NCBI GenBank assembly: GCA_002009975.1
Contig: MTLP01000028.1
Location: forward strand, 24,546-56,545
DNA: 32,000 nt
Origin: Thermococcus sp. JdFR-02
GTDB lineage: Archaea; Methanobacteriota_B; Thermococci; Thermococcales; Thermococcaceae
Direction of reading: 5' to 3'
Positions 8,796 through 27,242 of this stretch are shown here, piece by piece (within the stretch, counting starts at the first letter, position 1; each line of letters begins with the position of its first letter). The notes below the pieces were generated by a model. It saw nothing but the letters and a program-made list of their open reading frames with translations, ran no database searches and was not told where the DNA came from. The translations under genes were made by a program, and so were the position numbers.

Positions 8796-8827
8796 GCTCA
8801 ATCAGACAAAAATCGAAATGTTATGAT

Positions 8828-10204: not shown

Positions 10205-10339
10205 AACAATCAAATCCCAATCGAAACGTTATTATAAAAAGTTTATCGTGGACAAATTATCCTAGATGACGAGAGGAGAATTTTTCTTTCTCGTTTTATG
10301 CTAACAATTCTCAATTAGTAGTTTATTCGAAAGAATAGC

Positions 10340-12912: not shown

Positions 12913-15357
12913 TCAGAAAGAATGAAGTTCTAAAATGATCTCCAATGTATCTAATGCACTTTCAAGACCATAACTGTACTCCAATGCTCTCAAAATGTCA
13001 AGGGTAGCTTGCAGTGGGCGTGGTTCTTTTTGTAGGTCAAATGTTTCTTTAATGATTCTCAGGAGTTGCTCTTCCCTGTCTTTTAGCCCAGCAACGTGAT
13101 ATATGAAGAGAACGTTTGCATAAGTTGCCCTTGAATAGCCATATCCCGACTCTCCCTTAAATCTCCCATTTTCTTCTTGTTGGGTTGTTATCCATTCAGC
13201 GGCTCTTTTAACGGCTTCTAATGCTCTCTCATCTCCACTCAATTGATAGTACCTTGCTAAACCAAACGCTACTGCTATCGTTCCCCCCAAACTTGTTTTC
13301 TTCCATTGTCCATTGTCCTCTTGCTTCTCTAGGATTTTTTCAATGATATTTTGGGTTGTGGTTTCATTTAACACCCCAAGTTCATAGAGAATTGGCAGCA
13401 TTTGGGCTTCTGCTATTAAATCGCCTTTCGTGTCTTTTGGTGTGGTCATGATGTAATCTTCCTTTGTTCTTTCTTTCAGAAGGTTTAGTGCTTTTTGTTT
13501 TCCATCAAAGGGTAGATCTTTTAGTGACTCCATAGTTAGCGTTGTATATAATGTGAAGTCATTTGGTGGGATTCCCTCTATAAATCCACCGTTTTCGAGC
13601 TGTTTATAGGCTAACCATTTAAGGAGCCATTCATATCTCTCTTTTAATTTTTCATTTCCAGTTTCTTTGTAAAGATAAGCATAGAGCTTTGCAATTCTAG
13701 CATTTAAATAATAGTCGCCTTTATATCCCTCATCAAAATCTGCATAATTATAACCAGTCCAGAACTTTTCTAAAAATCTTATTATGCCTGAATACTTCCC
13801 GCTGTATTCTATTTTGTCCATATCTTTTGGATTTAATGCTGGATTTGGAATATACTTATAAACCTCAGAGTTTCCATTAACGAAGAGCGTTTTGAAGTGA
13901 GTATCATAAGTTACATATTCAAGAAGTCCGTATTTCAACAATCCCAGAGTTCTCATTCTTCTGTCAGTATAGATGTAAGTTGCGTTGTATTTCTCTATTA
14001 GTTTGTAAGCTCTCTCCCTTTGGACGGTTCCAAATATTGTGACGACATCGTTGTATGCTTGGATTGCCTCTCTTGGATCTGGGGCTTCACCCATAAAGCC
14101 TTGATAAACTTTCTTCCACATCACTATATCTTTTCTATGGGTGTTCCCAATTAATAGATATCCAACATCCCACCATGTTAAAAAAGTTGCATCCGTTGGC
14201 GTGTTTTCTTTAATCCATTCAAAAGCTTCCTTGTCCTTTACAGTTGGTGGGATTATGTACTTATACGAGGAATAGGCACCTTGAGCGATAGGAGTTAGAA
14301 TCAATAACGCTATTACCAGAGCTTTCATTTTTTTGCTTAAAATAACGCTTCTGAATAAGCTCGAACCTCTTCCCTTTATATCCTTAATAACTATGTAAAA
14401 AATCTCCTCAAGCTTTGGAATTAGCTCATCGTAAATGAACTCTGCAGCCATTATTGAGAGCGGAAAGCTGGCATAGGGATCTCTAAATCTAAAAGCAACG
14501 CTGCCTAAAATTAGAAATATCCATGCCCAGAGTGCAATCCCCTTTCTCACAACATCTCTCTCTAAGTATCTCTTTGTTGCCAATGTTCCAAACAGTAACT
14601 GAATGACCCCAATCCATTTGAAATATCCTAAAGCACTAACTTCCTCTCTTGGCATTCTAAGCAAAAGTCCAGCTATGAACCTGTTGATAGGTGGCAAAAA
14701 GTAAAGCACTACTCCTACTATAATGATGAGAGCAAAGTAGTGAAGATTCCTCTTGATCCATGGAAGCAGGTAGATTAGAATCATTATACCAATGACGCTT
14801 ATGAAGAACACCCAGCCTCTATGGGTAACCATGTAAATTGGGATTAGAACTGCCACACTCACCAAATATCTGATATCTTGACGTCTTAGGAATCTAATAA
14901 AGAGAAGCATGCCTATTGTAAACAGAAGAAGTCCTAAGTTTTCGGGAATGTAAAGGCTACTCCTGTACACAAAATTTGGGGCAAAGGCTAACAAAAGTGT
15001 TGCTAAGAAAGCTTTTTTCCCGCTTTTTAGTATTTCTTTAGAAAGGTAATAAAAAGCGGTTATAGTTAAGACTCCATAAATTGCTGGTAAGAGAAAGAAG
15101 GTGTAATCACTTGGGAAAATTTTGTAGATAACTGCACCGATTATATGGAAGAGCGGAGGATAGCTATAGGCTTTTAGTCCGAGGAGAGAACTTAAGTCTT
15201 TTGAAATTACCCCAAATCCTTCGTTAACTATTCTTAATGTAATGTCCCTGTGTAGGTATTCGTCATACGTAGCCAATAAGAGGTTTCTGTGAGGAATGAG
15301 GCGTATAATGAAAGATATGACGATTAAAATTGAGAGATATGCTTTTTCTCTCTTCAT
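12913..15357 (-). CDS. AglB/STT3-like oligosaccharyltransferase paralog (GT-C membrane domain + WWDxG core) with a C-terminal alpha/alpha-toroid-like domain
   Basis: Polytopic N-terminal 360 aa with a first-loop 'ATYDEYLHRD' (STT3 'DP(Y/W)..R'-like Asp motif). After the last TM comes 'EAFEWIKENTPTDATFLTWWDVGYLL' (WWD at 14168..14175, STT3/AglB WWDYG signature context). The C-terminal 290 aa carry QLENGGF, QEDNGQW and QQEENGRF repeats. Confidence 0.7.
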   Translation of the reverse strand: MKREKAYLSILIVISFIIRLIPHRNLLLATYDEYLHRDITLRIVNEGFGVISKDLSSLLGLKAYSYPPLFHIIGAVIYKIFPSDYTFFLLPAIYGVLTITAFYYLSKEILKSGKKAFLATLLLAFAPNFVYRSSLYIPENLGLLLFTIGMLLFIRFLRRQDIRYLVSVAVLIPIYMVTHRGWVFFISVIGIMILIYLLPWIKRNLHYFALIIIVGVVLYFLPPINRFIAGLLLRMPREEVSALGYFKWIGVIQLLFGTLATKRYLERDVVRKGIALWAWIFLILGSVAFRFRDPYASFPLSIMAAEFIYDELIPKLEEIFYIVIKDIKGRGSSLFRSVILSKKMKALVIALLILTPIAQGAYSSYKYIIPPTVKDKEAFEWIKENTPTDATFLTWWDVGYLLIGNTHRKDIVMWKKVYQGFMGEAPDPREAIQAYNDVVTIFGTVQRERAYKLIEKYNATYIYTDRRMRTLGLLKYGLLEYVTYDTHFKTLFVNGNSEVYKYIPNPALNPKDMDKIEYSGKYSGIIRFLEKFWTGYNYADFDEGYKGDYYLNARIAKLYAYLYKETGNEKLKERYEWLLKWLAYKQLENGGFIEGIPPNDFTLYTTLTMESLKDLPFDGKQKALNLLKERTKEDYIMTTPKDTKGDLIAEAQMLPILYELGVLNETTTQNIIEKILEKQEDNGQWKKTSLGGTIAVAFGLARYYQLSGDERALEAVKRAAEWITTQQEENGRFKGESGYGYSRATYANVLFIYHVAGLKDREEQLLRIIKETFDLQKEPRPLQATLDILRALEYSYGLESALDTLEIILELHSF
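12916..13785 (-). other. C-terminal helical-repeat (prenyltransferase/terpene-cyclase-like QW repeat) domain of the AglB-like protein
   Basis: Three spaced repeats of the form (W/I)(L/I)xxxQxxxNG(G/Q/R)(F/W) are separated by helical segments, as in alpha/alpha toroid folds. Confidence 0.45.
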
Positions 15358-15413
15358 TTTTGATACCCCTTAACTTTTTTAAGTTTTTAACCCACCTAAC
15401 TATTGGTGGTGTA

Positions 15414-16451
15414 ATGAGGGACTTAAAACTCTTTAGTTTGGCTTTTTTCAGTTACCTCCTCTTAACTCTTTATGCTAATATCTTTCTTAAACCTAAGCTT
15501 TATGCAGTGAATTTGGACATGTCGAGAATATGGATAGCTACACTTATAGCACTTACTTTTTACCTTTCTTTTGTCTTTGGATATTTTAAACCCATAAAGC
15601 TTCCCAAATATGTTTACTGGTTTATTGTTTTTATTCTATCCTTCGCTTTTGTTCCTTATGGACCAGTGACTGCTCTTTTATTCGTTTCCGCATACTTTGT
15701 CTATAAAGAGAGGTTATTTGAAAGATTTTCTTATTTCGCATTTTTTCTGGGTTTAGCAGTTGTTCTCTTTTCTTATTATTACGTTGGCATTCCCCTATTG
15801 AACTGGGAGGTTAGGTTCATCCTCTCCAAGATTCTTGTCTTATCTTCAGTTCTTTTCACCATTGGAATAGTTTATGTGGATAATCAAAAAGTTAAAGCTC
15901 TATTATTTATAATTGCGGAGATTCTTGCATTTTTGGGTACTTTTCGGTCTCTCATGCTTTTGATATTTGTAGCATACTTTGTTCCCTATTACCTAAAAAA
16001 TAAGGTAGATTTGAGATTGATAAGCCTCTTAACGCTAATTGGTTTAGCCTTGCTGTATCTGAGTGATAATCTAACCTCCTTGTTAGTGAGGATAGGTTTT
16101 ACTTTTTTAGTTTTCCATAATTTGGTTAATATTTCTCTTCCTTTTGGATTTTTTCATGGTTCTTTGCTCTTAAATTCTGATCCAAGGTGGAGAGTGGCTT
16201 TTATGTTTACTCTAAATGGGAGCTATACCTATTTTCTCTTTGGACAACCAATAGCGGATTTTGGAATTCTTGGAATTTTGGAGGCTTATTTGTTGGGAGT
16301 TCTGCTTAGACTGTCCAATAGGGATTTAAGGGGGAATGTAATGGTTCTCTCGCTTTTAATTTATGCTATAGAAACAGGTTTAGATGCATTCCTTCTCTCA
16401 AGTCTAATTCTTTTTGGTGGCATATTTTCTAAGGGTGAAGTACAAAGTTAA
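15414..16451 (+). CDS. Polytopic integral membrane protein (9 or more TM), unknown function
   Basis: The ATG at 15414 has a GGTGGTG RBS; the track start at 15330 would overlap the divergent AglB-like start. Very hydrophobic and Phe/Leu/Tyr-rich, with one larger loop (NSDPRWRVAFMFTLNGSYTYF). No motif recognised. Confidence 0.75.
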   Translation: MRDLKLFSLAFFSYLLLTLYANIFLKPKLYAVNLDMSRIWIATLIALTFYLSFVFGYFKPIKLPKYVYWFIVFILSFAFVPYGPVTALLFVSAYFVYKERLFERFSYFAFFLGLAVVLFSYYYVGIPLLNWEVRFILSKILVLSSVLFTIGIVYVDNQKVKALLFIIAEILAFLGTFRSLMLLIFVAYFVPYYLKNKVDLRLISLLTLIGLALLYLSDNLTSLLVRIGFTFLVFHNLVNISLPFGFFHGSLLLNSDPRWRVAFMFTLNGSYTYFLFGQPIADFGILGILEAYLLGVLLRLSNRDLRGNVMVLSLLIYAIETGLDAFLLSSLILFGGIFSKGEVQS

Positions 16452-18475: not shown

Positions 18476-19627
18476 ATGAACCCTCTTGAAGAAGCTTTAA
18501 AGATTAAAGACCAAATAATAGCTTGGAGAAGAGATTTCCACCAATATCCAGAGCTTAAGTATGAAGAAGAAAGAACATCAAAAATAGTTGAAGAGCACTT
18601 AAAAGAGTGGGGATATGAGGTAAGAAGAATTTCTACTGGAGTTATTGGAACCATTGGTGAAGGGGACAAGATGATTGCTTTAAGAGCAGATATGGATGCT
18701 TTGCCTGTTCAAGAGGAGAATGATGTTCCTTATAAGTCTAAGATTCCTGGAAAGATGCATGCTTGTGGTCATGATGCTCACACTGCAATGCTACTAGGAG
18801 CAGCAAAAATAATAGCGGAACATAAGGAAGAGTTAAATGGAAAAGTTAGGGTGATTTTTCAGCCAGCAGAAGAAGGAGGAAATGGAGCAAAGGTTATGAT
18901 AAAAGGAGGAGCCTTAGAAGGAGTAAATGCGATTTTTGGAATTCATGTTTGGTCAGAATTACCAAGTGGGGTTATTGGCATTAGGGAAGGACCTTTCTTG
19001 GCTGGTGCCGGCGAGTTCCATGTAAAGATTAAGGGTAAGGGAGGACATGGAGCTTCACCGCACGAAACCGTTGATCCAATAGTAGTAGCATCTCAAGCAG
19101 TTTTAGCTTTTCAAACGATTGTAAGTAGAAATGTGGAGCCAATTAAGCCTGCTGTTGTCAGTGTAGGAGCAATTCACGCTGGAACGGCTTTTAACGTGAT
19201 TCCAGAAGAAGCTGAAATGAAGGGGACTTACAGGTTCTTTGAGCCAGAAATTGGAAAGCTAATTGAAAAGAGAATAGACGAAATCTTAAGTGGAATAACA
19301 AAAGCTTACCACGCTGATTATAAGTTAAATATCGTTGAGTTAACTCCACCAACTATAAATCATTCTAAGATGGCTCAATTTGTTAAAGATGTTGCTCAGA
19401 GATATAGTATAGGAACAGTAAGTGAAGTTTCTTTAACAATGGGTGCTGAAGATTTCTCATTCTATTTACAAAAAGTTCCAGGGGCATTTGTTGCACTGGG
19501 AATTAAAAACAAAGCTAAGGGAATAATTTATCCACATCATCATCCAAAATTCAATGTTGACGAAGATATTTTGCATCTTGGGACAGCTTTAGAAGTTGCT
19601 CTGGCTTTTGAGTTTTTGAGATTATAA
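18476..19627 (+). CDS. M20D-family amidohydrolase (aminoacylase/carboxypeptidase type)
   Basis: RRDFHQYPEL, ALRADMDALP, MHACGHDAHTAMLLGAA, FQPAEEG and HHPKF motifs. 383 aa. Confidence 0.9.
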   Translation: MNPLEEALKIKDQIIAWRRDFHQYPELKYEEERTSKIVEEHLKEWGYEVRRISTGVIGTIGEGDKMIALRADMDALPVQEENDVPYKSKIPGKMHACGHDAHTAMLLGAAKIIAEHKEELNGKVRVIFQPAEEGGNGAKVMIKGGALEGVNAIFGIHVWSELPSGVIGIREGPFLAGAGEFHVKIKGKGGHGASPHETVDPIVVASQAVLAFQTIVSRNVEPIKPAVVSVGAIHAGTAFNVIPEEAEMKGTYRFFEPEIGKLIEKRIDEILSGITKAYHADYKLNIVELTPPTINHSKMAQFVKDVAQRYSIGTVSEVSLTMGAEDFSFYLQKVPGAFVALGIKNKAKGIIYPHHHPKFNVDEDILHLGTALEVALAFEFLRL

Positions 19628-19807
19628 CAATTTTTTAAAAATTTTCCAATCAATTATTTATTCTTTTGCCTAATTTTTGTTCTCATTGTTGTCATATTTT
19701 AAGTTTTTATTTACGTAAATTGTATTACTATTCAACATTTTACTAAATATCAACATTGAACTTTATATTTTTAAGAAAAATTACCAGAATACTTTACTCA
19801 TAGAAAG

Positions 19808-19815
19808 TTTTATAT
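19808..19815 (+). promoter_or_regulatory. Candidate TATA box of the giant protease gene
   Basis: AAAG-TTTTATAT is about 50 nt upstream of the ATG at 19866. A strong GGAGGTG RBS lies at 19854..19860. Confidence 0.4.
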
Positions 19816-19865
19816 CCTCGATGAGAGTAGTATAGAAATGAATACTTATATACGGAGGTGTACTG

Positions 19866-22800
19866 ATGAGTAGAAAAACTCTAAGCGTACTTATTATATC
19901 TTTAATGCTCTTTTCAGTAGTTCCAGTGGCTCTAGTAAGTGCGGGGGTTACTGATTCCGAACCCCAAGTATCTCATAAGGTTACAAAATTAGCTATTATT
20001 TCAAAAGAGCCAGAAACAGCAAAAGATCCAATGGAAAAAATTGAACCTAAATTGCTTGACATACTAAAAGGCAAAGTAGAAGTTTATGTCCCAGAAGTGA
20101 ATGGGAAAAAACTGCTACCTATACATATAGTTACAACTTCTGACATTTCTTCAAAGTTGAGAGGTGTGGAGGTAGTTGGCAAGAGTGAAATTGCGGGAAT
20201 GACAGTATATTTAGCGTTGGTTCCAATTAAAGAGGAAAGTGAGAGGATAATATTAAAGATTGCGTCCATTCCTGAAGTTGAAGCAGTTACAAGAACGAAT
20301 CCCTTTGAACCTATTGGAGACGTTAAGCCTATTGAAGAAAAAGAGAACCGAGAATTTGTTAAGATTCCAAAATCAAAGTTTTCTAAGTTAATAGAATTAA
20401 AAGGAGAATGGTTCCCAGAAGAGGTTAATGGTTATAGAGTAGTTAAACTGACAGATCTTCTTCCAGAGAAACTAAAAGAGCTACAGGATCAAAGTCTTGC
20501 AAGAAGAGGGGAGATAACTTTAGAAAAAAGAGAGGTTGAGGTTAAAAACCCAATTCAACCACAAGACTATTTTGCGATCTACCATCATGGAGCATTAAAT
20601 ACTTGGGTAGATTTGGGCATTACAGGAGCTGGGATCAATGTGGCAATAATTGATAGTGGCGTTGACTTTGGAAATCCAGATTTGCAAGATGCTTATGCTG
20701 TTGAAATGAATCCAGAAAGCCCGTATTATGGATGGCCAATAGCCTTTAGCGGACACTCAATGATTTGGTATCTTTTGATGAACATGACATTCCCAGATTA
20801 TATCTACTCCTGGTATGCTAACACTTCAAGATATGTCTTATCTCCAATAATAATGGAAGGAAACTTTAGCATAGGTTATAAAGGAAACTTCACCACAGTA
20901 TTCACTTCTATGGACTTGGCAAACGTTATTGATGATTATGAGAGAGCAGACATAATAAACGCAACACTTGACTGGATTGGAAATGTAAGCACTATTCTCT
21001 TGGTCGATGATGATGGAGAAGATCTTCTAGAAGAATTTTATGTAAATGCTTTAGACATCCTTGGAGTGAACTATACATATTACGAAGTCCCATATGGCAA
21101 GATAGGTCCCAACTCTACCGTAATGAGCAATTACGACTTGGTTATGTGGTTTACTGGAGCAACTTATAAAGACACCTTAACGGTTGAAGACATTGGAAAT
21201 CTAACAGAGTATTTAGATAATGGTGGAAAATTATGGTTCATTAGTCAGGACTACCTATATGACAAAGATGATGGTCCAATTTACACCAACAGGCATGTAA
21301 TATACAAGCAGGAGAATGCTACTGCACCACCAGAAGGTAATAGTACAGAACACTACTTCAATGTGACAGCTAGCGCTCCGATTCTTAGGGTTGTTACAAC
21401 AAGCGATTATAGCAACTTAGATATTGATATTGAGCTCTATTACTATAATGAAACAAGTGGAGAATGGGAATTTATTGACGATTCAGATGGCTTAGATTCA
21501 ATGGAAGAAATTATCATTGAAAATCCACTAATAGGTCAGTACATGGTTGATGTATATAGCTTTGAAAATCCAGAATATGACAATGCTACGTACACTATAA
21601 AAGTTGAAACTGCTAACATATCAGGATACTTTACTTATGAATATCTACATGTTGGGAATGTCTCCATAGAGGATATGCCAGTACCTACAGTGCTTGAAGA
21701 CTTTAATGGAGCAAAATATCGCGCAGGTGAGGTGTATTATGGAATTTACGAGAGTCCTACGGACATATGGGCAGACTATATAGTTCCCGACGAAAATGCT
21801 ACAGTCTTATTAAGAGGATACACTGCTTATGCAACTAATGGATCTACCATCTACCTTGTTAAATTGCCATTAAATAATAACTTAGAGGTTCCAACACAAA
21901 GCGAAGAAGTCCATTTAGGATTACATCCAGATTTAGCACTTTGGTTCTACTGGTATGGAGGATGGGTATTGGTAACAGATCCAAATAATGCAACGGTTTA
22001 TGACACAGTCTATGTGGACCTTACTCCAGTATGGGGAGTTCCAGATTTCAATGAGGATGTGGGACATACTAAAAATAATCCAGTGGTTCAATTAGACTTC
22101 TGGGATGCATTTAACGATGAATTTGGTCAAGATGGATACGCTGACCTTTCAGGTGGACTAATTTACTTCATAGCAGATGGACAAACACCAATACCCTATG
22201 CAGATATAGTTGCTTCTAGATGGGGACTTAACCTACCAATTCCAGAAAATGGTGAGTTAGTGGCGTTTATGATAGGTACGGACTGGATTGGAGGAGGAGA
22301 TCACGGTACATTATGTGCAGCTGCAGTTGGAGCAAGAGGAAGAACGTTTATGGGGTTAACATTTGGTACAGCAATTGAGGCAAAAATAATAGCTGAAGGT
22401 TCTCTCTATTCAGGTGGAAGTTGGTTTGACTACGTTTACTTTGCTGTTCAAGGTTACGATGGAGTCCCAGGCACAGGAGATGAAGCATTTGTTGTAAGCA
22501 ATAGCTATGGAAACTCCTACGTAATTAACAAAGGCTACTACTATGCAGATAGATTTATTGATTTTGTAACAACTCTCTATACTCCATGGGTAACGTTCCT
22601 CTTTGCTGCAGGCAATGGCGGTCCAGGTTATGGAACAGTTACAAGTGAGGGAGCTTCTCCAGGAGTAATTACTGTAGGAGCTGCAGTTGAATATGGATAT
22701 AGAAACTTATTTGGATACGATGGTGGTCCTTTAGGATACGAATTTGCAAATTATGGGGACGTTGTGGAGTTCTCTAACAAAGGTCCAAACGCATTGGGGC

Positions 22801-25800
22801 AAGTTGATCCTGACATTTTAGCAGTGGGTGCATTTGCACTGGGAAGTTTACCTGTTAACAGCATAGGAGATGGATTCTGGGCAAGCACTTTGTGGTCTGG
22901 AACAAGTCTAGCAACTCCAATGGCTGCTGGTATCACGGCTTTGGTTTACCAGGCATACTATCTAGCACATGGAACTTACCCAACAAGCCAAGAAGTTAGG
23001 GAAATCTTAATGAGTACAGCAGATAATGTAAATCACGATGTCTTTAGCCAAGGTGCAGGATTCCTAAATGCTTATAGAGCCGTTATGGCGGCATTAAACC
23101 AAGAGGGAATAGTTGTATCTCCATCACTATGGCAAGCTGGAGACTATAACGGACAAGAGTATAGGGCATTTGCAAAGATCATGTATCCTGGAGAAAGTGA
23201 CTCACAAGAGTTCGTAGTTAAAAACATGAATCAAGCTGCAGATAAAAATGTAAGCGTTTCAGCAGAGATTTTCGAAAAGATAGGAGAGACCACATTTGAG
23301 GTTTCTGTGGGAGGTTTGTATAGAATAGACCAATATATCCCAGATGATGCAGAATTAATGAAAGTCACAATGTACATTCCATACGAGCAATTCGATGAGG
23401 ATTGGGACTATTCATATGACACATACTTATATTTCGAGCTCTTTGCATGGACAGATACAAATGGTAATGGCACAGTCGAGTTCTGGTATGAGACAAATAG
23501 GATACAACATGCAGCAAAAGCTGGAACTACAGCATCAACAATGCTTGGAAATCCATGGGATAAATTCACAGATGGATTGCTCTTGAGAATTAGGGCTGGA
23601 GGCTATAACAATATAGTGAAGCTTGAGTTCTACAAGAGGGTTCCATGGGAGTGGGTTACAATTGATAATTCAAGCTTAATAGTTGCAGCTAATGGAAGTG
23701 CTACCTTCACAGCAACATTAACGGTTCCAGAAGATACACCATTTGGAGTATATGAAGGTGCTATTTACTTGAAATATGATGGAACCGAAACTACAATCCC
23801 AATAAGCGTTGTTGTTGCTTCACCAACGCCAGAATTTGAATTTGGTGGCGATATAAACGCAACAGGACTTTATGATAATTCAAATGTCTACGGCTATATG
23901 GACTGGTGGTGGAGATACGAAAGTGGAGACTGGAGATTGTTCTACTTTGACATAGGGGATGAGTACAGTATTGGTGACAACACTTACGTAGTAGCAGATG
24001 TCTCATGGGATGGATCCCTCCCAACTGATATTGACTTACATCTCCTAGGACCTGAAGAAGATGACTGGAGCTATTACTTCCCCGAGATTTATGGTCCATA
24101 CGCACTTAATGTAATTGCATCAAGTAAGGACACCTACATGGGGTCTGGAATATTCCAATTTGCAACTTCAAGCGGTGGAACAAGAGAGATAATAGCAGGG
24201 AAGGCACAAAATGGTTTGCACGCTTTATGGCTACACAATGTCCTCTTTGATGGAAATGCAAGCTTTAGAACATTCTATGGAAGAGTAGGTCTGCTTAATG
24301 TATATCCAAATGAGTGGAATGAATATATAACCCAAGAAAATGGAACAATGCAGTTCCTAGTTTCAAGAACAATAGACTTTGGAAATATCACAGCAAGTGC
24401 TAAGTCAGCAATTACTGAAGGATACAAGGATGTTTTGGCTCCTGATACGGGAGATAGCCATTATTATGCATTTAATGTCACCACAGGATCTGTGAGATTG
24501 CATGTTAAACTAACCAGCATTTACGACGATTTAGCTGGAGTAGACTTAGATTTGTATGTGTACTACAATGGACAATTGATTGGTTCTTCATTGTCTCCAA
24601 CTTCAGACGAGGAAGTTGTTGTGGATGACCCAGAGCCAGGAGAGTACATTATTGAGGTTTATTCATGGAATAATCCAGTTCCAGGAGAAGCTACATATGA
24701 CCTAGAAATATACGATTTTGGTGGAGAGAAGTTAGAAGTGTTGGACATTACGGAAATTGGGACTGAAGAGTACCAAATTGACCTAGCGTATCATGATATA
24801 CCTGTAAATGAGAGTACATTAGGAACTGAAGTGAAAGGCTTAGTATTCATAGGCTCAGACCTAGCGCCAAAGTTAGTTACGGTTCCAGTAACTCTTATTG
24901 TTGGCAACATCAGCTCAAGAGCAGATACGAGAATAGTTAATGTGATCTTAGAAAGTGAGGAAGATGTAATCAAAGTTGGAAGTACCGTTAGTATAAAAGC
25001 TACTATAGTCAATGAAGGTCCAGCAATTGCTTCAAATGCTGAAGTTGTGCTCTTTAAGGACAATGTTCCAATAGATAGGGTAGTGTTAGGAGACTTTAAC
25101 ATCAGTGAAGTTTATGAAGTGGTATTCAACGTTACTATAACGGACGACATAGCTCATGAATACAAAGTAGTTGTTAGCTCTGACAATGACTACAATATGG
25201 GCAACAACTACAACATAATGAACATTAAGGGTATGGAAGTTGAAGAATTCTTGTTCTCTGAAACAGGAAATGTCACAATAAACGCAGTCTTTGATGGAAT
25301 TGCGGAGGTTACTACGGTAGAGAAGAAGGAGAGAAAGATTGAGGTTACTGTGGATGGAACTCACGGTGCTATAGTTACATTAATGTTTAACCTACCACGT
25401 GACTTACACTACTACGATGTCATAATCTATGATGCAGATTTGATAAGTAGTAGAATAATAAGGGTAGCAACTTCGACAATTCTTGAAGTTAAAGTGCAAC
25501 TACATTCACCAGCACAAATTACCGTTGAATACATGACAGCTTCAGAAGCATTATACCAAATAGGAACCCTCTGGTATGTAGTCTACAACAAGAAACTTGA
25601 TACGTTTGAAGAACTCTACAATAAAGCTGTTGAACTTGGAATTGATAATGAAACGATTCAAGAGGCTCTACATCACAAAGAAATCGCTGAGCAATATTAT
25701 GAAGAAGCGGGCAAATTCGGTCCTATAATAAGGAATCTAACAAATCCAAAAGTGCTTCCATATTTGAGAAAAGCGTATATTCACATGAAGAGAGCAGTAG

Positions 25801-25823
25801 AAATTTTGACAGAAGCTTTGTAA
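19866..25823 (+). CDS. Secreted giant subtilisin-like (S8, pyrolysin-like) serine protease, 1985 aa
   Basis: Signal peptide MSRKTLSVLIISLMLFSVVPVALVSAG. Catalytic motifs are NVAIID(263)SGVD, GGGDH(813)GTLCAAAV, AAGN(917)GGPG and SGTS(1014)LATPMAAG. There are two PPC-like domains, a CARDB-like domain and a helical C-terminal tail. Confidence 0.92.
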   Translation: MSRKTLSVLIISLMLFSVVPVALVSAGVTDSEPQVSHKVTKLAIISKEPETAKDPMEKIEPKLLDILKGKVEVYVPEVNGKKLLPIHIVTTSDISSKLRGVEVVGKSEIAGMTVYLALVPIKEESERIILKIASIPEVEAVTRTNPFEPIGDVKPIEEKENREFVKIPKSKFSKLIELKGEWFPEEVNGYRVVKLTDLLPEKLKELQDQSLARRGEITLEKREVEVKNPIQPQDYFAIYHHGALNTWVDLGITGAGINVAIIDSGVDFGNPDLQDAYAVEMNPESPYYGWPIAFSGHSMIWYLLMNMTFPDYIYSWYANTSRYVLSPIIMEGNFSIGYKGNFTTVFTSMDLANVIDDYERADIINATLDWIGNVSTILLVDDDGEDLLEEFYVNALDILGVNYTYYEVPYGKIGPNSTVMSNYDLVMWFTGATYKDTLTVEDIGNLTEYLDNGGKLWFISQDYLYDKDDGPIYTNRHVIYKQENATAPPEGNSTEHYFNVTASAPILRVVTTSDYSNLDIDIELYYYNETSGEWEFIDDSDGLDSMEEIIIENPLIGQYMVDVYSFENPEYDNATYTIKVETANISGYFTYEYLHVGNVSIEDMPVPTVLEDFNGAKYRAGEVYYGIYESPTDIWADYIVPDENATVLLRGYTAYATNGSTIYLVKLPLNNNLEVPTQSEEVHLGLHPDLALWFYWYGGWVLVTDPNNATVYDTVYVDLTPVWGVPDFNEDVGHTKNNPVVQLDFWDAFNDEFGQDGYADLSGGLIYFIADGQTPIPYADIVASRWGLNLPIPENGELVAFMIGTDWIGGGDHGTLCAAAVGARGRTFMGLTFGTAIEAKIIAEGSLYSGGSWFDYVYFAVQGYDGVPGTGDEAFVVSNSYGNSYVINKGYYYADRFIDFVTTLYTPWVTFLFAAGNGGPGYGTVTSEGASPGVITVGAAVEYGYRNLFGYDGGPLGYEFANYGDVVEFSNKGPNALGQVDPDILAVGAFALGSLPVNSIGDGFWASTLWSGTSLATPMAAGITALVYQAYYLAHGTYPTSQEVREILMSTADNVNHDVFSQGAGFLNAYRAVMAALNQEGIVVSPSLWQAGDYNGQEYRAFAKIMYPGESDSQEFVVKNMNQAADKNVSVSAEIFEKIGETTFEVSVGGLYRIDQYIPDDAELMKVTMYIPYEQFDEDWDYSYDTYLYFELFAWTDTNGNGTVEFWYETNRIQHAAKAGTTASTMLGNPWDKFTDGLLLRIRAGGYNNIVKLEFYKRVPWEWVTIDNSSLIVAANGSATFTATLTVPEDTPFGVYEGAIYLKYDGTETTIPISVVVASPTPEFEFGGDINATGLYDNSNVYGYMDWWWRYESGDWRLFYFDIGDEYSIGDNTYVVADVSWDGSLPTDIDLHLLGPEEDDWSYYFPEIYGPYALNVIASSKDTYMGSGIFQFATSSGGTREIIAGKAQNGLHALWLHNVLFDGNASFRTFYGRVGLLNVYPNEWNEYITQENGTMQFLVSRTIDFGNITASAKSAITEGYKDVLAPDTGDSHYYAFNVTTGSVRLHVKLTSIYDDLAGVDLDLYVYYNGQLIGSSLSPTSDEEVVVDDPEPGEYIIEVYSWNNPVPGEATYDLEIYDFGGEKLEVLDITEIGTEEYQIDLAYHDIPVNESTLGTEVKGLVFIGSDLAPKLVTVPVTLIVGNISSRADTRIVNVILESEEDVIKVGSTVSIKATIVNEGPAIASNAEVVLFKDNVPIDRVVLGDFNISEVYEVVFNVTITDDIAHEYKVVVSSDNDYNMGNNYNIMNIKGMEVEEFLFSETGNVTINAVFDGIAEVTTVEKKERKIEVTVDGTHGAIVTLMFNLPRDLHYYDVIIYDADLISSRIIRVATSTILEVKVQLHSPAQITVEYMTASEALYQIGTLWYVVYNKKLDTFEELYNKAVELGIDNETIQEALHHKEIAEQYYEEAGKFGPIIRNLTNPKVLPYLRKAYIHMKRAVEILTEAL
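20766..22298 (+). other. Insertion of about 500-550 aa between the catalytic Asp and His of the S8 domain
   Basis: D263 codon at 20652..20654 and H813 codon at 22302..22304. The insert contains an alpha/beta module (TILLVDDDGE...YDLVMWFTG...GGKLWFISQD, about 20960..21270) and a PPC-like beta module (HYFNVTA...DIDIELYYY...GQYMVDVYSF...YTIKVE, about 21348..21608). Confidence 0.75.
24459..24719 (+). other. Second PPC (pre-peptidase C-terminal)-like domain
   Basis: HYYAFNVTTGSVRLHVKL...GVDLDLYVYYNGQLIG...PGEYIIEVYSW...ATYDLEIYDF. Confidence 0.6.
24930..25215 (+). other. CARDB-like (cell-adhesion-related, Ig-like) domain
   Basis: VGSTVSIKATIVNEGPAIASNAEVVLFKDNVPIDRVVLGDFNISEVYEVVFNVTI...DNDYNMGNN. 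Confidence 0.5.
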
Positions 25824-25832
25824 TCTTGAATT

Positions 25833-25868
25833 TCTCTTTTCTTTTTTAGTTTTTTAATTTTTAATTCC
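25833..25868 (+). terminator. T-tract terminator downstream of the protease gene
   Basis: TTTCTCTTTTCTTTTTTAGTTTTTTAATTTTTAATT lies directly after the TAA at 25821..25823. Confidence 0.55.
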
Positions 25869-25873
25869 GAAAG

Positions 25874-25881: not shown

Positions 25882-25929
25882 TGCTATTTTAATTAACTTA
25901 AGTTGGCAAAACTATTTGGGGGTATAGTA

Positions 25930-26829
25930 ATGCTAGGGACCCTTGCAATTGTGGTACTTGGAGTGTTTTTGCTTTTGATGCTTGTTTTAAGCGTGAAAGT
26001 GATACGACCATACCAAAAGGGCTTAGTTGAAAGGCTTGGAAAATTCAACAGAATTTTAGATCCTGGAATACACTTTATTGTGCCTTTTATGGAAAGTGTG
26101 AAAGTAGTTGACATGAGGGAGCACGTGATAGATGTCCCACCTCAAGAGGTCATTTGTAAGGATAATGTGGTTGTTACAGTAGATGCGGTTGTTTATTACC
26201 AAGTGCTTGATCCAGTAAAAGCTACTTACAACGTGAGCAACTTCTTAATGGCAATAATCAAACTTGCACAGACCAACTTGAGAGCAATAATTGGTGAAAT
26301 GGAGCTTGATGAGACCTTAAGCGGTAGAGATGTAATTAACGCTCGCTTAAGAGAGGAACTTGACAAAATAACCGACAGATGGGGAGTAAAAATTACGAGG
26401 GTTGAAATCCAGAGGATTGACCCACCAAGGGATATTCAAGAGGCAATGGCAAAGCAAATGACAGCTGAGAGAGAAAAGAGAGCAATGATTCTCCTAGCAG
26501 AGGGTGAGAGGGAGAGTGCAATTAAGAAAGCTGAAGGTGAAAAGCAAGCAAGGATTTTAAGGGCTGAAGGTATGAAACAAGAGCAAATTCTCGTTGCAGA
26601 GGGTCAAGCTGAAGCAATTAGAAAGGTTTTAGAAGCATTAAAGTTGGCGGATGAGAAGTATTTGGCTTTACAATACATAGAAAGACTACCAGAGCTAGCA
26701 AAATACGGAAACTTAATTGTGCCTTATGACACTGAGTCTTTAATTGGTCTCCTTAGAGTTCTTCAAAAAATTGGAAAAACAAAAATGCCTATAAGCACTG
26801 AAAACGTAGAAAAAACAGGTGAGCAGTGA
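25930..26829 (+). CDS. SPFH/band-7 protein (prokaryotic stomatin)
   Basis: N-terminal TM, then VKVIRPYQKGLVERLGKF..IL.PGIHFIVPF, and an EA-rich coiled coil (AEREKRA..LAEGE...AEGEKQA..L.AEG). The ATG at 25930 is preferred over the TTG at 25903. Confidence 0.92.
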   Translation: MLGTLAIVVLGVFLLLMLVLSVKVIRPYQKGLVERLGKFNRILDPGIHFIVPFMESVKVVDMREHVIDVPPQEVICKDNVVVTVDAVVYYQVLDPVKATYNVSNFLMAIIKLAQTNLRAIIGEMELDETLSGRDVINARLREELDKITDRWGVKITRVEIQRIDPPRDIQEAMAKQMTAEREKRAMILLAEGERESAIKKAEGEKQARILRAEGMKQEQILVAEGQAEAIRKVLEALKLADEKYLALQYIERLPELAKYGNLIVPYDTESLIGLLRVLQKIGKTKMPISTENVEKTGEQ

Positions 26830-27242
26830 TGGAATATCTTCCTCTTTTACTTTTAATTTTGGGCTTGCTTATAGTAGTGCTTGATATGATGATTACAGCA
26901 TTTATAACGCCAATTGGAATTGCATTTGCAACCTTAGGGCTTTTGTTAATGTTTAACGTTAATTTTAACGTTGCTTTTGTGATATCATTAATAGCCGCAG
27001 TTGTGAGCTATCACCTCTTTGCAAAGTTTATAAAAAAGGGCACTGAGGATATTGGAAAACCAAGATACACTTTTGAGCTGAAGGGCAAGAAAGGAAAAGT
27101 GAGTCATGTTAAAGGAGATGAAGTATGGGTAGAGCTTGAAGGAGAAGAATGGCTAGCTAAACCTCTTGAGGATGTGAATGAAGGGGATGAAGTAGTGGTT
27201 GTTGATGTTGATGGAATAAAATTAATTGTTCGTAAAGCTTGA
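26829..27242 (+). CDS. Short NfeD-family membrane protein (TM segments + C-terminal OB-fold)
   Basis: The ATG overlaps the stomatin TGA (ATGA). Two or three TM segments are followed by GKKGKVSHVKGDEVWVELEGEEWLAKPLEDVNEGDEVVVVDVDGIKLIV, a typical NfeD C-terminal beta-barrel. Confidence 0.8.
   Translation: MEYLPLLLLILGLLIVVLDMMITAFITPIGIAFATLGLLLMFNVNFNVAFVISLIAAVVSYHLFAKFIKKGTEDIGKPRYTFELKGKKGKVSHVKGDEVWVELEGEEWLAKPLEDVNEGDEVVVVDVDGIKLIVRKA

What the first reader, a model, noticed from the sequence alone, without database searches (positions are those of the whole stretch)
19866..25823. 1985-aa pyrolysin-like S8 protease whose catalytic triad is split by a ~550-residue insertion
Textbook subtilase motifs are present: IIDSGVD, DHGTLCAAAV, AAGNGGPG and SGTSLATPMAAG. 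However, Asp263 and His813 are 550 residues apart, against about 30 in subtilisin and, as I recall it, well under 200 in pyrolysin. His813 to Ser1014 spans another 200 residues. The protein is far larger than characterised Thermococcales proteases. It combines a signal peptide, a propeptide-like region, the interrupted catalytic domain, a long beta-rich middle, a second PPC domain, a CARDB-like domain and a helical tail.
Basis: partly seen in the sequence, partly recalled or inferred. Interest (0 to 1): 0.65.

Follow-up and report, generated by a model that had tools for sequence, protein, structure and literature searches.

The report
Giant archaeal subtilase with nested insertion
This gene encodes a very large secreted subtilisin-type protease from a Thermococcus-like archaeon whose catalytic domain is interrupted by about 520 residues of extra folded domains; it is a real and uncharacterised enlargement of an insert already known from pyrolysin and tripeptidyl-peptidase II, and close relatives share it.

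Summary
ORF 19866-25823 (+) encodes 1985 aa with Asp263, His813, oxyanion Asn917 and Ser1014 at the stated motifs. Asp and His are 550 residues apart, against 32 in subtilisin BPN'. No alternative Asp unit lies near His813, and the four residues are conserved across 40 homologues. AlphaFold2 folds residues 225-1100 as one confident body (pLDDT 87, pTM 0.82).

The insert is nested and modular.
- A roughly 200-aa insert is the baseline of a large clade of giant archaeal and Chloroflexota S8 proteases (Asp-His spacing 203-240).
- Thermococcales orthologues add a beta-hairpin, an alpha/beta 'LLVDDDG' domain and a beta-rich segment, giving a spacing of 430-454.
- The window's lineage adds a PPC jelly-roll, giving 550.

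It is not the largest. Close relatives reach 592-612, and Thermoplasmata relatives carry a WD40 propeller at the same place (about 900).

The LLVDDDG domain has no Pfam model above threshold. It occurs in more than 5,400 protein clusters and is repeatedly attached to S8 and papain-type peptidases.

The most likely function is a secreted, N-glycosylated, envelope-associated endopeptidase that feeds peptide uptake; the role of the insert is inferred, not shown. I rate it a new variant of a known kind, of moderate interest.

The parts
19804..19860 (+). Promoter-like BRE/TATA element (AAAGTTTTATATCC, 19804-19817) and ribosome-binding site (GGAGGTG, 19854-19860)
   Evidence: Read directly from the sequence. 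The same AAAGTTTTATA motif precedes the next gene at 25869. This is a consensus-level call only.
19866..25823 (+). Complete ORF, 1985 aa, S8 subtilase
   Evidence: The identical protein is called on independent assemblies.
19866..19943 (+). Sec-type signal peptide (residues 1-26: MSRK, a hydrophobic core, then VSA|G)
   Evidence: By inspection of the translation. No predictor was run.
19944..20570 (+). N-terminal propeptide-like region (residues 27-235)
   Evidence: Conserved in orthologues (consensus) and free of N-x-S/T sequons. There is no Pfam Inhibitor_I9 hit, so the propeptide role is inferred.
20571..20717 (+). First piece of the S8 catalytic domain (residues 236-284) with catalytic Asp263 (20652-20654)
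   Evidence: BPN' 19-53 aligns to residues 250-284, and Vpr 8jmw 150-199 aligns to 226-276. Asp263, Gly265 and Asp267 are invariant. pLDDT is 84-97 in the model.
20718..22295 (+). Insertion between Asp and His (residues about 285-810; boundaries uncertain by about 10-15 residues on each side)
   Evidence: The AlphaFold2 strand at 798-802 lies 11 residues before the His helix and may be the canonical strand e2.
20718..20831 (+). Core insert, first part (residues 285-322; SPYYGWPIAF...SWYANTS)
   Evidence: Conserved in short-insert relatives P0029 and P0030 and in the WD40 relatives.
20832..20909 (+). Long beta-hairpin that opens the nested module (residues 323-348)
   Evidence: AlphaFold2 models.
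20910..21278 (+). Alpha/beta 'LLVDDDG' domain (residues 349-471), resembling the class I glutamine-amidotransferase fold and lacking a nucleophile
   Evidence: AlphaFold2 shows alternating strand and helix. D381, D382 and D383 are invariant or nearly so. Only sub-threshold hits to DUF4159, ThuA, DUF2194, ABC_transp_aux and GH42M. 5,435 representative clusters carry it.
21312..21629 (+). Internal PPC-type beta jelly-roll (PPC1, residues 483-588)
   Evidence: 36% identical to PPC2, E 4e-15. Foldseek matches the collagenase PPC 5sv5 and the KP-43 and Tk-SP jelly-rolls. Absent from most orthologues.
21633..21965 (+). Beta-rich segment that closes the nested module (residues 590-700)
   Evidence: Present in all Thermococcales orthologues and absent in P0029 and P0030. 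The AlphaFold2 model shows strands here.
21966..22295 (+). Core insert, second part (residues 701-810; HLGLHPD...YDTVYVDL...GQDGYADLSGG...LVAFMIG)
   Evidence: Conserved down to P0029, P0030, P0037 and P0038 and in Thermoplasmata and Chloroflexota loci. Contains several nearly invariant Asp residues.
22296..23105 (+). Second piece of the S8 catalytic domain (residues 811-1080) with His813, Asn917 and Ser1014
   Evidence: Pfam S8 profile positions 54-288. PDB matches to KP-43, SubHal, Tk-SP and Vpr.
23106..24425 (+). Beta-rich middle region (residues 1081-1520) with a weak Fn3-like signal near 1264-1308
   Evidence: fn3_5 at E 0.0011, below the cut-off. Conserved in orthologues and in P0029 and P0030.
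24426..24713 (+). C-terminal PPC domain (PPC2, residues about 1521-1616)
   Evidence: PF04151 at 36.8 bits against a cut-off of 25.9.
24948..25202 (+). CARDB-like domain (residues about 1695-1779)
   Evidence: PF07705 at E 2e-6, 28.4 bits against 22.7 when the segment is scanned alone.
25494..25820 (+). Conserved C-terminal helical tail (residues about 1877-1985)
   Evidence: A profile of the tails finds it in all Thermococcales orthologues and weakly in a pyrolysin-like protein (P0045, E 5.5e-4).
25826..25860 (+). T-rich stretch after the stop codon, terminator-like
   Evidence: Read from the sequence.

Best explanation
The gene encodes a secreted subtilase (family S8A) of a Thermococcales archaeon. 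Its catalytic domain is built from two pieces that lie far apart in the sequence: residues about 236-284, carrying Asp263, and residues about 811-1080, carrying His813, Asn917 and Ser1014.

The roughly 520 residues between them form a nested insertion in the surface loop that precedes the His helix. The layers are as follows.
- An older beta-rich insert of about 200 aa, shared by a large clade of giant archaeal and Chloroflexota S8 proteases.
- Inside it, in Thermococcales, a module made of a beta-hairpin, an alpha/beta 'LLVDDDG' domain and a beta-rich segment.
- In this lineage, an additional PPC jelly-roll.

Shown here: the motifs, their conservation, the modular make-up of the insert and its variation among relatives, and a confident single-body structure prediction.

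Inferred:
- The enzyme is an active endopeptidase made as a pre-pro-protein.
- It is heavily N-glycosylated on the inserted and C-terminal domains.
- It is held at the cell envelope through its C-terminal region.
- It degrades extracellular protein to peptides for uptake by a peptide-fermenting archaeon.
- The inserted domains sit beside the substrate cleft and serve as substrate-binding, access-limiting or stabilising decorations. They are not part of the catalytic chemistry.
For: Triad and fold.
- The motif positions are exact.
- S8 scores 96.7 bits, in two stretches.
- BPN' 19-53 aligns to residues 250-284, and KP-43 67-317 aligns to 812-1074.
- Asp263, Asn917 and Ser1014 are invariant and His813 is at least 90% conserved in 40 sequences.
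- Residues 690-1080 alone match the S8 profile only from position 54.
- In the short-insert relative P0029 and the pyrolysin-like P0045, one continuous S8 match spans Asp through Ser.
- The AlphaFold2 model of residues 225-1100 has pLDDT 87.1 and pTM 0.82. The Asp piece scores 84-97, and a helix starts at His813.
- Foldseek gives the best matches to KP-43, SubHal, Tk-subtilisin, Vpr and Tk-SP.

Nested, modular insert.
- A segment-by-segment BLAST across 53 homologues shows which segments each protein has.
- Asp-His spacing is 203-240 in 45 loci of the wider clade and 430-454 in most Thermococcales orthologues. It is 550 in the window clade and 592-612 in P0020-P0026.
- Spacing is 903 in P0034, which has a WD40 propeller at about 690-1000.
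- The model of the insert alone has pLDDT 90.4 and pTM 0.86.

Secreted and nutritional role.
- A signal peptide is visible in the translation.
- There are 35 N-x-S/T sequons against 14 +/- 3 expected. 19 lie in the insert and none in residues 1-262 or 811-1080, and orthologues show the same pattern.
- An M20 peptidase gene lies directly upstream and is conserved in a related genome.
- Two orthologues carry a fused fragment of an oligopeptide-binding-protein domain, SBP_bac_5.
- 'Pyrolisin-like' secreted serine endopeptidases are abundant in proteomes of protein-degrading Thermoplasmatales (PMC5103831).

Link between the accessory domain and peptidases.
- The LLVDDDG domain is found twice, C-terminal to the S8 domain, in Anaerolineae proteases.
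- It is also found with Peptidase_C1.
Against: - No activity, localisation or processing data exist for this protein or any orthologue that I could find.
- I could not read model coordinates, so the triad geometry and the position of the inserted domains relative to the cleft were not measured.
- The propeptide region has no Inhibitor_I9 match.
- There is no peptide transporter in the window.
- One short-insert relative (P0029) has Arg in place of the catalytic His, so not every member of the wider clade need be active.
- The alpha/beta domain has no significant match to any characterised family, so its role is open.
Confidence: 0.75

Rival explanations
1. The Asp263 region is a remnant or a separate upstream domain, and another Asp closer to His813 completes the triad. 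The catalytic domain would then not really be split.
For: Several nearly invariant Asp residues lie in 700-760: D705, D713, D718, D744, D756 and D760. The 'VYVDLT' stretch looks superficially like a strand that ends in Asp.
Against: Residues 690-1080 match the S8 profile only from position 54, and nothing there matches the Asp-bearing positions 1-53. The Asp263 segment aligns to BPN' 19-53 and to Vpr, and it carries the invariant D-S-G-V-D motif. In short-insert relatives a single S8 match runs from the same Asp motif to Ser. The conserved Asp residues of 700-760 are also present in those relatives alongside the canonical Asp.
Confidence: 0.03
2. The protein is a non-catalytic envelope or adhesin-like protein that merely keeps a subtilase scaffold.
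For: Many binding-type domains are present (PPC twice, CARDB, Fn3-like, jelly-rolls). The relative P0029 lacks the catalytic His.
Against: Asp, His, Asn and Ser, and the surrounding substrate-binding motifs (GTLCAAAV, AAGNGGPG, SGTSLATPMAAG), are conserved in the whole Thermococcales group. Such conservation is not expected in a dead enzyme.
Confidence: 0.07
3. The insert is removed or cut during maturation, by an intein-like or autoproteolytic step. The mature enzyme would then be a normal-sized or two-chain subtilase.
For: Subtilases commonly self-process. From my own recollection, pyrolysin matures by removal of N- and C-terminal parts. The models have a few low-confidence loops in the insert: around residues 628-631 in the insert-only model and around 625-634 in the 225-1100 model.
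Against: There is no Hint or intein match. The protein has a single Cys, at 817, and no splice-junction residues. The insert folds confidently together with the catalytic core (pTM 0.82), and it carries conserved sequons, as a permanent surface part would.
Confidence: 0.1
4. The enzyme is not a general endopeptidase. It would be an access-restricted exo- or oligopeptidase, or a specific processing protease, in which the inserted domains form a gate or ruler, as the Asp-His insert and double-Glu motif do in tripeptidyl-peptidase II.
For: The insert sits at the same topological position as in tripeptidyl-peptidase II (TPPII), and the family profile matches 3lxu at E 4.9e-35. An invariant acidic triplet, D381-D383, lies at the ligand-binding edge of the alpha/beta domain. 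The compact multi-domain model would allow a restricted cleft.
Against: The core insert shows no sequence similarity to the TPPII insert. The LLVDDDG domain also occurs far from the catalytic domain and in up to six copies in unrelated giant proteins, which fits a general binding or scaffold role better than an active-site ruler. The protein is secreted, whereas TPPII is cytosolic.
Confidence: 0.15

Closest known systems
Pyrolysin of Pyrococcus furiosus (MEROPS S08.100) and the pyrolysin group of subtilases
   Same: Both are hyperthermophile, signal-peptide-bearing, very large S8A proteases with a large insert between Asp and His and a long C-terminal extension. A pyrolysin-like Thermococcus protein (P0045) has an Asp-His spacing of 190 and weakly shares the C-terminal helical tail. 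Published work reports that inserts in the pyrolysin catalytic domain add stability and activity (Gao et al. 2017, seen only as a title in the reference list of PMC10580911).
   Different: The spacing here is 550, against about 190. The extra length consists of whole folded domains (alpha/beta, PPC, beta-rich) nested in the insert. The sequence relation is distant: 31% identity over 16% of the query. BLAST does not align the core insert to P0045. The protein has 1985 aa, against 1398 aa for pyrolysin (my recollection).
Tripeptidyl-peptidase II (PDB 3lxu)
   Same: It is an S8 enzyme whose Asp and His are separated by an insert of about 200 residues (my recollection), which matches the baseline spacing of this clade (203-240). 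The profile match is E 4.9e-35 over the His-Ser part.
   Different: TPPII is cytosolic and eukaryotic, and forms a giant homo-oligomeric exopeptidase. No similarity was detected in the insert itself. This protein has a signal peptide, sequons and extracellular-type domains.
Tk-SP (3afg, 9ues), KP-43 (1wmd), SubHal (5fax) and Vpr (8jmw)
   Same: These are the best sequence and structure matches for the His-Ser part of the catalytic domain. KP-43 and Tk-SP also carry a C-terminal jelly-roll that resembles the PPC domains here.
   Different: All of them have a short, ordinary Asp-His segment and are 400-800 aa long.
Subtilases with a PA domain inserted in the catalytic domain (cucumisin/SBT3 3i6s, C5a peptidase, lactocepin)
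   Same: They are the precedent for a whole folded domain inserted into the S8 catalytic domain without loss of activity. SBT3 appears among the matches.
   Different: The PA domain is inserted between His and Ser, is a single domain of about 120-150 aa, and belongs to a different fold. Here three or four modules are nested between Asp and His.
STABLE protease of Staphylothermus marinus
   Same: It is a surface-layer-bound giant archaeal subtilase said to generate peptides for energy metabolism (PMC9549277). Desulfurococcales relatives in the scan have an Asp-His spacing of roughly 250.
   Different: I did not have its sequence to test. The Desulfurococcales loci share no detectable similarity with the core insert.

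Membership tests
Peptidase family S8 (subtilases) | Catalytic residues in the order Asp, His, Ser, within the D-[ST]-G, H-G-T and G-T-S-x-A-x-P motifs | tested here: met
   Asp263, His813 and Ser1014 lie in IIDSGVD, DHGTLC and SGTSLATP and are conserved in 40 homologues.
Peptidase family S8 (subtilases) | Oxyanion-hole Asn | tested here: met
   Asn917 in AAGNGGPG is invariant.
Peptidase family S8 (subtilases) | Profile match above the curated threshold | tested here: met
   PF00082 scores 96.7 bits against 21.8, E 2e-27, in two stretches.
Peptidase family S8 (subtilases) | Subtilisin alpha/beta fold | tested here: met
   The AlphaFold2 model has pLDDT 87. Foldseek E-values are 1e-14 to 1e-12 to KP-43, SubHal and Tk-subtilisin. 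The alignment covers only about 280 columns, which is the His-Ser part.
Peptidase family S8 (subtilases) | Triad residues within hydrogen-bonding distance; serine peptidase activity | not testable with these tools
   Model coordinates are not exposed, and there is no experiment.
Pyrolysin group (Siezen and Leunissen classification) | Large insertions in the catalytic domain, notably between Asp and His, plus a long C-terminal extension | tested here: met
   The spacing is 550, and about 900 aa follow the catalytic domain.
Pyrolysin group (Siezen and Leunissen classification) | Clusters with pyrolysin or stetterlysin by catalytic-domain sequence | tested here: inconclusive
   The pyrolysin-like P0045 is a weak hit: E 1.2e-14, 31% identity over 16% of the query. 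The tail similarity has E 5.5e-4. No phylogeny with MEROPS holotypes could be made.
Tripeptidyl-peptidase II | Homologous Asp-His insert, a cytosolic location and a giant homo-oligomer | tested here: not met
   The insert of the short relative P0029 finds no TPPII match, even at E 10. This protein has a signal peptide. Oligomerisation is not testable.
PPC domain (PF04151) | Profile match above threshold | tested here: met
   PPC2 scores 36.8 bits against 25.9. PPC1 alone has no Pfam hit, but it is 36% identical to PPC2 and matches PPC structures.
CARDB (PF07705) | Profile match above threshold | tested here: met
   28.4 bits against 22.7 on the segment alone. On the whole protein it scores 21.8 bits, just below the cut-off.
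Class I glutamine amidotransferase-like clan (DUF4159, ThuA, DUF2194, ABC_transp_aux, GH42M) | Profile match above threshold to a member family | tested here: not met
   The window domain scores 12.8 bits against 25.9 for DUF4159. The best E-value among 19 homologous domains is 5.7e-4, and 7 of the 19 hit DUF4159 weakly. The PDB profile search finds nothing significant. The resemblance is at fold level only.
Class I glutamine amidotransferase-like clan (DUF4159, ThuA, DUF2194, ABC_transp_aux, GH42M) | Nucleophile Cys after the fourth strand (true amidotransferases) | tested here: not met
   The equivalent position reads W-F-T-G and varies (T, C, V, A) across homologues.
Intein or Hint domain (considered for the insert) | Hint-domain match and Cys, Ser or Thr splice junctions with a terminal His-Asn | tested here: not met
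   No Hint family appears in the scans. The only Cys in the protein is residue 817.

The most novel reading that the evidence does not exclude
The loop before the His helix of this S8 clade is an evolutionary hot spot. It has accepted at least four unrelated folded modules in different lineages: an alpha/beta LLVDDDG domain, a PPC jelly-roll, a WD40 propeller and further beta domains. These give Asp-His spacings from about 200 to more than 900 residues. The modules would build a substrate-capture or gating platform over the active site. The LLVDDDG domain would be an undescribed, widespread family (more than 5,400 clusters) of peptidase-associated accessory domains whose acidic triplet binds a cation or the basic end of substrates.
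Probability: 0.3. Interest if true: 0.6.

Novelty: new variant of a known kind. Interest (0 to 1): 0.42.

Why it matters
Protein architecture. This is a clear natural case of several complete domains, one nested in another, inserted into a catalytic domain that still appears to assemble. That is useful for understanding how much interruption an enzyme fold tolerates, and for engineering subtilases by domain insertion.

Archaeal physiology. Thermococcales live on peptides. This orthologous group is probably one of their largest secreted proteases, yet it has never been studied; work has concentrated on pyrolysin, Tk-subtilisin and Tk-SP. A hyperthermostable, glycosylated, multi-domain protease may have a different substrate range, for example insoluble or structural proteins.

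The accessory domain. The work also exposes a very common but unannotated extracellular alpha/beta domain that keeps turning up next to peptidases.

Tried and rejected
1. Searching the protein database with the 126-aa C-terminal tail returned nothing, not even the protein's own cluster. This is an index limitation. I replaced it with a local profile search over fetched sequences.
2. A sequence search of the core insert of the short relative P0029 against the PDB found only the Asp motif region and no TPPII insert. Homology of the core insert to the TPPII or pyrolysin insert therefore remains unproven.
3. Foldseek with the 876-aa model aligned only about 280 columns of the S8 core, so it says nothing about the Asp piece or the insert.
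4. Foldseek with the insert alone matched only jelly-roll and CBM-type beta-sandwiches, with low TM-scores. It gave no convincing match for the alpha/beta domain.
5. A PDB profile search with the alpha/beta domain found nothing significant. The top hit, a ParA-like PF-32 protein at E 0.0017 over 40 residues, is judged spurious.
6. The paper on pyrolysin inserts (PMC5311392) is not held, and the term 'IS147' retrieved only unrelated papers.
8. An intein, a gene fusion or an assembly artefact were considered and rejected. There is no Hint domain, there is only one Cys, and 28 independent homologues share the same continuous architecture.
9. Whether PPC1 was gained in the window lineage or lost several times elsewhere could not be resolved from a neighbour-joining tree.

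Full report
**1. Observation.**
The window holds an ORF at 19866-25823 on the + strand, 1985 codons with an ATG start. The four subtilase motifs are at the stated residues:
- IIDSGVD at 261-267
- DHGTLCAAAV at 812-821
- AAGNGGPG at 914-921
- SGTSLATPMAAG at 1011-1022

This gives Asp263, His813, Asn917 and Ser1014. Asp and His are 550 residues apart, and His and Ser 201.

Pfam finds Peptidase_S8 at 96.7 bits (cut-off 21.8) in two separate stretches; the better one covers residues 811-1065 and profile positions 54-288. It also finds PPC (best at 1530-1600) and a borderline CARDB. CARDB passes its cut-off when the segment is scanned alone.

The gene has a BRE/TATA-like element at 19804-19817, a GGAGGTG ribosome-binding site seven bases before the ATG, and a T-rich tract after the stop codon. 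It therefore looks like a unit of its own. The window has 38% G+C and otherwise holds housekeeping genes, including PEP synthase, MatE transporters, phosphoglycerate mutase, NMD3 and an M20 peptidase.

**2. Is Asp263 the catalytic Asp?**
Several lines agree.
- Subtilisin BPN' residues 19-53, which contain Asp32, align to residues 250-284. The solved Vpr peptidase aligns at residues 226-276 with 'AIIDTGVEYKHPDL'.
- In an alignment of residues 225-1100 with 39 homologues, Asp263, Gly265, Asp267, Asn917 and Gly-Thr-Ser1014 are invariant. His813 is conserved in at least 90%; the exception is P0029, which has Arg.
- Scanned alone, residues 690-1080 match the S8 profile only from position 54. There is thus no second Asp-bearing unit in the 120 residues before His813.
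- In relatives with a shorter insert (P0029, and the pyrolysin-like P0045), one continuous S8 match runs from the same Asp motif to Ser.
- AlphaFold2 folds residues 225-1100 with mean pLDDT 87.1 and pTM 0.82. The Asp segment scores 84-97, a strand at 258-262 precedes Asp263, and a helix starts at His813.
- Foldseek places the model with KP-43, SubHal, Tk-subtilisin, Vpr and Tk-SP, although the alignment covers only about 280 columns.

I could not read coordinates, so the triad distances remain unmeasured.

The exact borders of the insert are uncertain by 10-15 residues on each side. The sequence alignment puts the subtilisin strand e2 at 276-281. The model has a strand at 798-802, 11 residues before the His helix, which is where e2 lies in subtilisin.

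**3. What the insert is made of.**
A segment-by-segment comparison with 53 homologues shows that the insert is modular.
- Residues 285-322 and 701-810 form a core that also occurs in relatives with an Asp-His spacing of only 218-227 (P0029, P0030). It recurs in Thermoplasmata, Poseidoniales and Chloroflexota proteins.
- Between these two parts lies a nested module, residues about 321-690, which the short relatives lack.

A separate AlphaFold2 model of residues 320-705 (pLDDT 90.4, pTM 0.86) shows four elements:
- a long beta-hairpin (323-348)
- an alpha/beta domain of alternating strands and helices (349-471)
- a beta-sandwich (about 471-589)
- a further beta-rich stretch (596-700)

The sandwich is a PPC-type jelly-roll. 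It is 36% identical to the C-terminal PPC of the same protein (E 4e-15). It also matches the collagenase PPC domain and the C-terminal jelly-rolls of KP-43 and Tk-SP.

The alpha/beta domain carries an invariant or nearly invariant 'LLVDDDG' motif at the end of its first strand, together with W-F-T-G, Y-L-x-N-G-G and Q-D-Y-L motifs. It gives only sub-threshold hits. All of these fall in what I recall to be the class I glutamine-amidotransferase-like clan: DUF4159, ThuA, DUF2194, ABC_transp_aux, DMFA2_C, GH42M and DUF4350. There is no conserved nucleophile. Neither the PDB profile search nor Foldseek identified it.

**4. Relatives and evolution.**
The window protein has near-identical copies in metagenome assemblies (98% and 88%). 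Full-length orthologues are found in:
- Thermococcus sp. SY098, T. barossii, T. siculi, T. sibiricus and T. sp. 2319x1
- Pyrococcus kukulkanii
- T. paralvinellae and T. sp. M36

All are annotated only as S8 family serine peptidase or 'pyrolisin-like serine protease'. The locus is syntenic with a Thermococcaceae genome: the M20 peptidase lies upstream, and DUF424, NMD3 and a pyridine-nucleotide-disulphide oxidoreductase (Pyr_redox_2) gene lie downstream.

The Asp-His spacing varies as follows.

| Group | Asp-His spacing (residues) |
|---|---|
| 45 loci of the wider clade (Poseidoniales, Thermoplasmata, Chloroflexota, Sumerlaeota) | 203-240 |
| Most Thermococcales orthologues | 430-454 |
| P0027 and P0028 | 481-504 |
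| Window clade | 549-550 |
| P0020-P0026 | 592-612 |
| P0034 (Methanobacteriota archaeon), WD40 propeller at about 690-1000 between Asp193 and His1096 | 903 |
| One further archaeal locus | roughly 950 |

In a neighbour-joining tree the window clade sits among orthologues that lack the internal PPC. The PPC-bearing P0020-P0026 group is their sister. Gain versus repeated loss of that PPC is therefore unresolved.

The insert in the window is thus a lineage-specific enlargement of an old feature, and it is not the extreme.

**5. The LLVDDDG domain elsewhere.**
A profile of the domain finds 5,435 representative clusters at E 0.001 or better, and 2,865 at 1e-10 or better. Proteins carry up to six copies and reach 6,435 aa. 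The contexts are varied.
- Anaerolineae S8 proteases carry two copies C-terminal to a normal, uninterrupted catalytic domain.
- Two of ten sampled proteins combine it with a papain-family domain, and others with PKD, CARDB or thrombospondin repeats.
- Stand-alone 256-aa versions exist.

It is therefore a mobile extracellular domain, repeatedly recruited by peptidases of two catalytic classes, and no Pfam family reaches threshold for it.

**6. Function.**
The following points support a secreted, glycosylated protease with a nutritional role.
- The N-terminus is a typical signal peptide.
- N-x-S/T sequons are 2.5 times more frequent than composition predicts (35 against 14 +/- 3). 19 lie in the insert and none in residues 1-262 or 811-1080. 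The same distribution holds in eleven orthologues and in the WD40 relative.
- Two orthologues carry a fragment of an oligopeptide-binding-protein domain before the tail.
- An M20 peptidase is the conserved upstream neighbour.
- Proteomic work reports signal-peptide-bearing 'pyrolisin-like' endopeptidases as abundant in protein-degrading Thermoplasmatales (PMC5103831).
- The C-terminal 110-residue helical tail is conserved in all Thermococcales orthologues and weakly in a pyrolysin-like protein. A role in envelope attachment is only a guess.

The role of the inserted domains is inferred. From general knowledge of subtilisin structure, they emerge from the variable loop that borders the active-site His. 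They could bind substrate, limit access, stabilise the fold at high temperature (as is reported for pyrolysin's inserts), or carry glycans that protect against autolysis.

**7. Comparison with the known, and verdict.**
Large Asp-His inserts are a known trait of the pyrolysin group and of tripeptidyl-peptidase II. Whole-domain insertion into S8 catalytic domains is known from the PA domain of plant and streptococcal subtilases.

Two things are new here: the size of the insertion, and its nesting of three or four folded modules of unrelated folds, one of which belongs to an undescribed family. I found no paper on this orthologous group.

The truly lineage-specific part is about 320-345 residues. 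Orthologues are common. Longer examples exist. I rate it a new variant of a known kind, of moderate interest.

Noticed in passing
window 19866-25823 (residues 285-810 against 1-262 and 811-1080): N-x-S/T sequons are strongly enriched: 35 against 14 +/- 3 expected. They are unevenly placed, with 19 in the Asp-His insert and none in the signal and propeptide region or the His-Ser core. Orthologues and a WD40-bearing relative show the same pattern.
   Followed up: partly
window 20910-21278 (residues 349-471): The alpha/beta 'LLVDDDG' domain has no Pfam family above threshold. It is nevertheless found in 5,435 representative protein clusters, in up to six copies per protein, and together with S8 and papain-type (C1) peptidase domains.
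   Followed up: partly
P0034 (Methanobacteriota archaeon, 2639 aa), residues 193-1096; also locus L060: Relatives carry a WD40 beta-propeller and further domains between the catalytic Asp and His, giving spacings of about 900 and roughly 950 residues. These are larger than in the window.
   Followed up: partly
P0018 (Pyrococcus kukulkanii, residues 1752-1938) and P0021 (Thermococcus paralvinellae): Two orthologues have part of an oligopeptide-binding-protein domain (SBP_bac_5, profile positions 197-353 only) inserted between the CARDB region and the C-terminal tail.
   Followed up: no
P0029 (1483 aa, metagenome), around residue 435: A short-insert relative has Arg where the catalytic His should be ('SNRGTRC') but keeps Asp, Asn and Ser. 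It may be an inactive paralogue or carry a sequencing error.
   Followed up: no
window 25494-25820 (residues 1877-1985): The C-terminal tail of about 110 residues is predicted by eye to be helical and has no transmembrane segment. It is conserved in all Thermococcales orthologues and weakly in a pyrolysin-like protease. It may be an envelope-attachment or assembly element.
   Followed up: partly
window 12913-15357 (-) and 15330-16451 (+): An 814-aa membrane protein has PMT_2 and STT3 N-terminal similarity plus a GH127/squalene-cyclase-like part. It overlaps the start of an O-antigen-polymerase-like gene. Both are glycosylation-type genes lying a few kb upstream of a sequon-rich secreted protease.
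   Followed up: no
window 25903-27242 (+): A pair of SPFH/Band 7 and NfeD genes sits directly downstream of the protease. It is absent at this position in the two syntenic Thermococcaceae loci (L001, L002).
   Followed up: partly
window 18476-19627 (+): An M20 family metallopeptidase gene lies directly upstream on the same strand. It is conserved at the same place in locus L002 (75% identity) but not in L001.
   Followed up: partly
window 9-1274 (+): A 421-aa protein combines a pyridoxal-phosphate-dependent (PALP) enzyme domain with a C-terminal PadR-type winged-helix domain, an enzyme-regulator fusion.
   Followed up: no
window 7404-10213 (-): Two adjacent MatE-family transporter genes (465 and 461 aa) lie in tandem. 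A single gene in locus L003 is 60% and 64% identical to them, so they are probably a tandem duplication.
   Followed up: no
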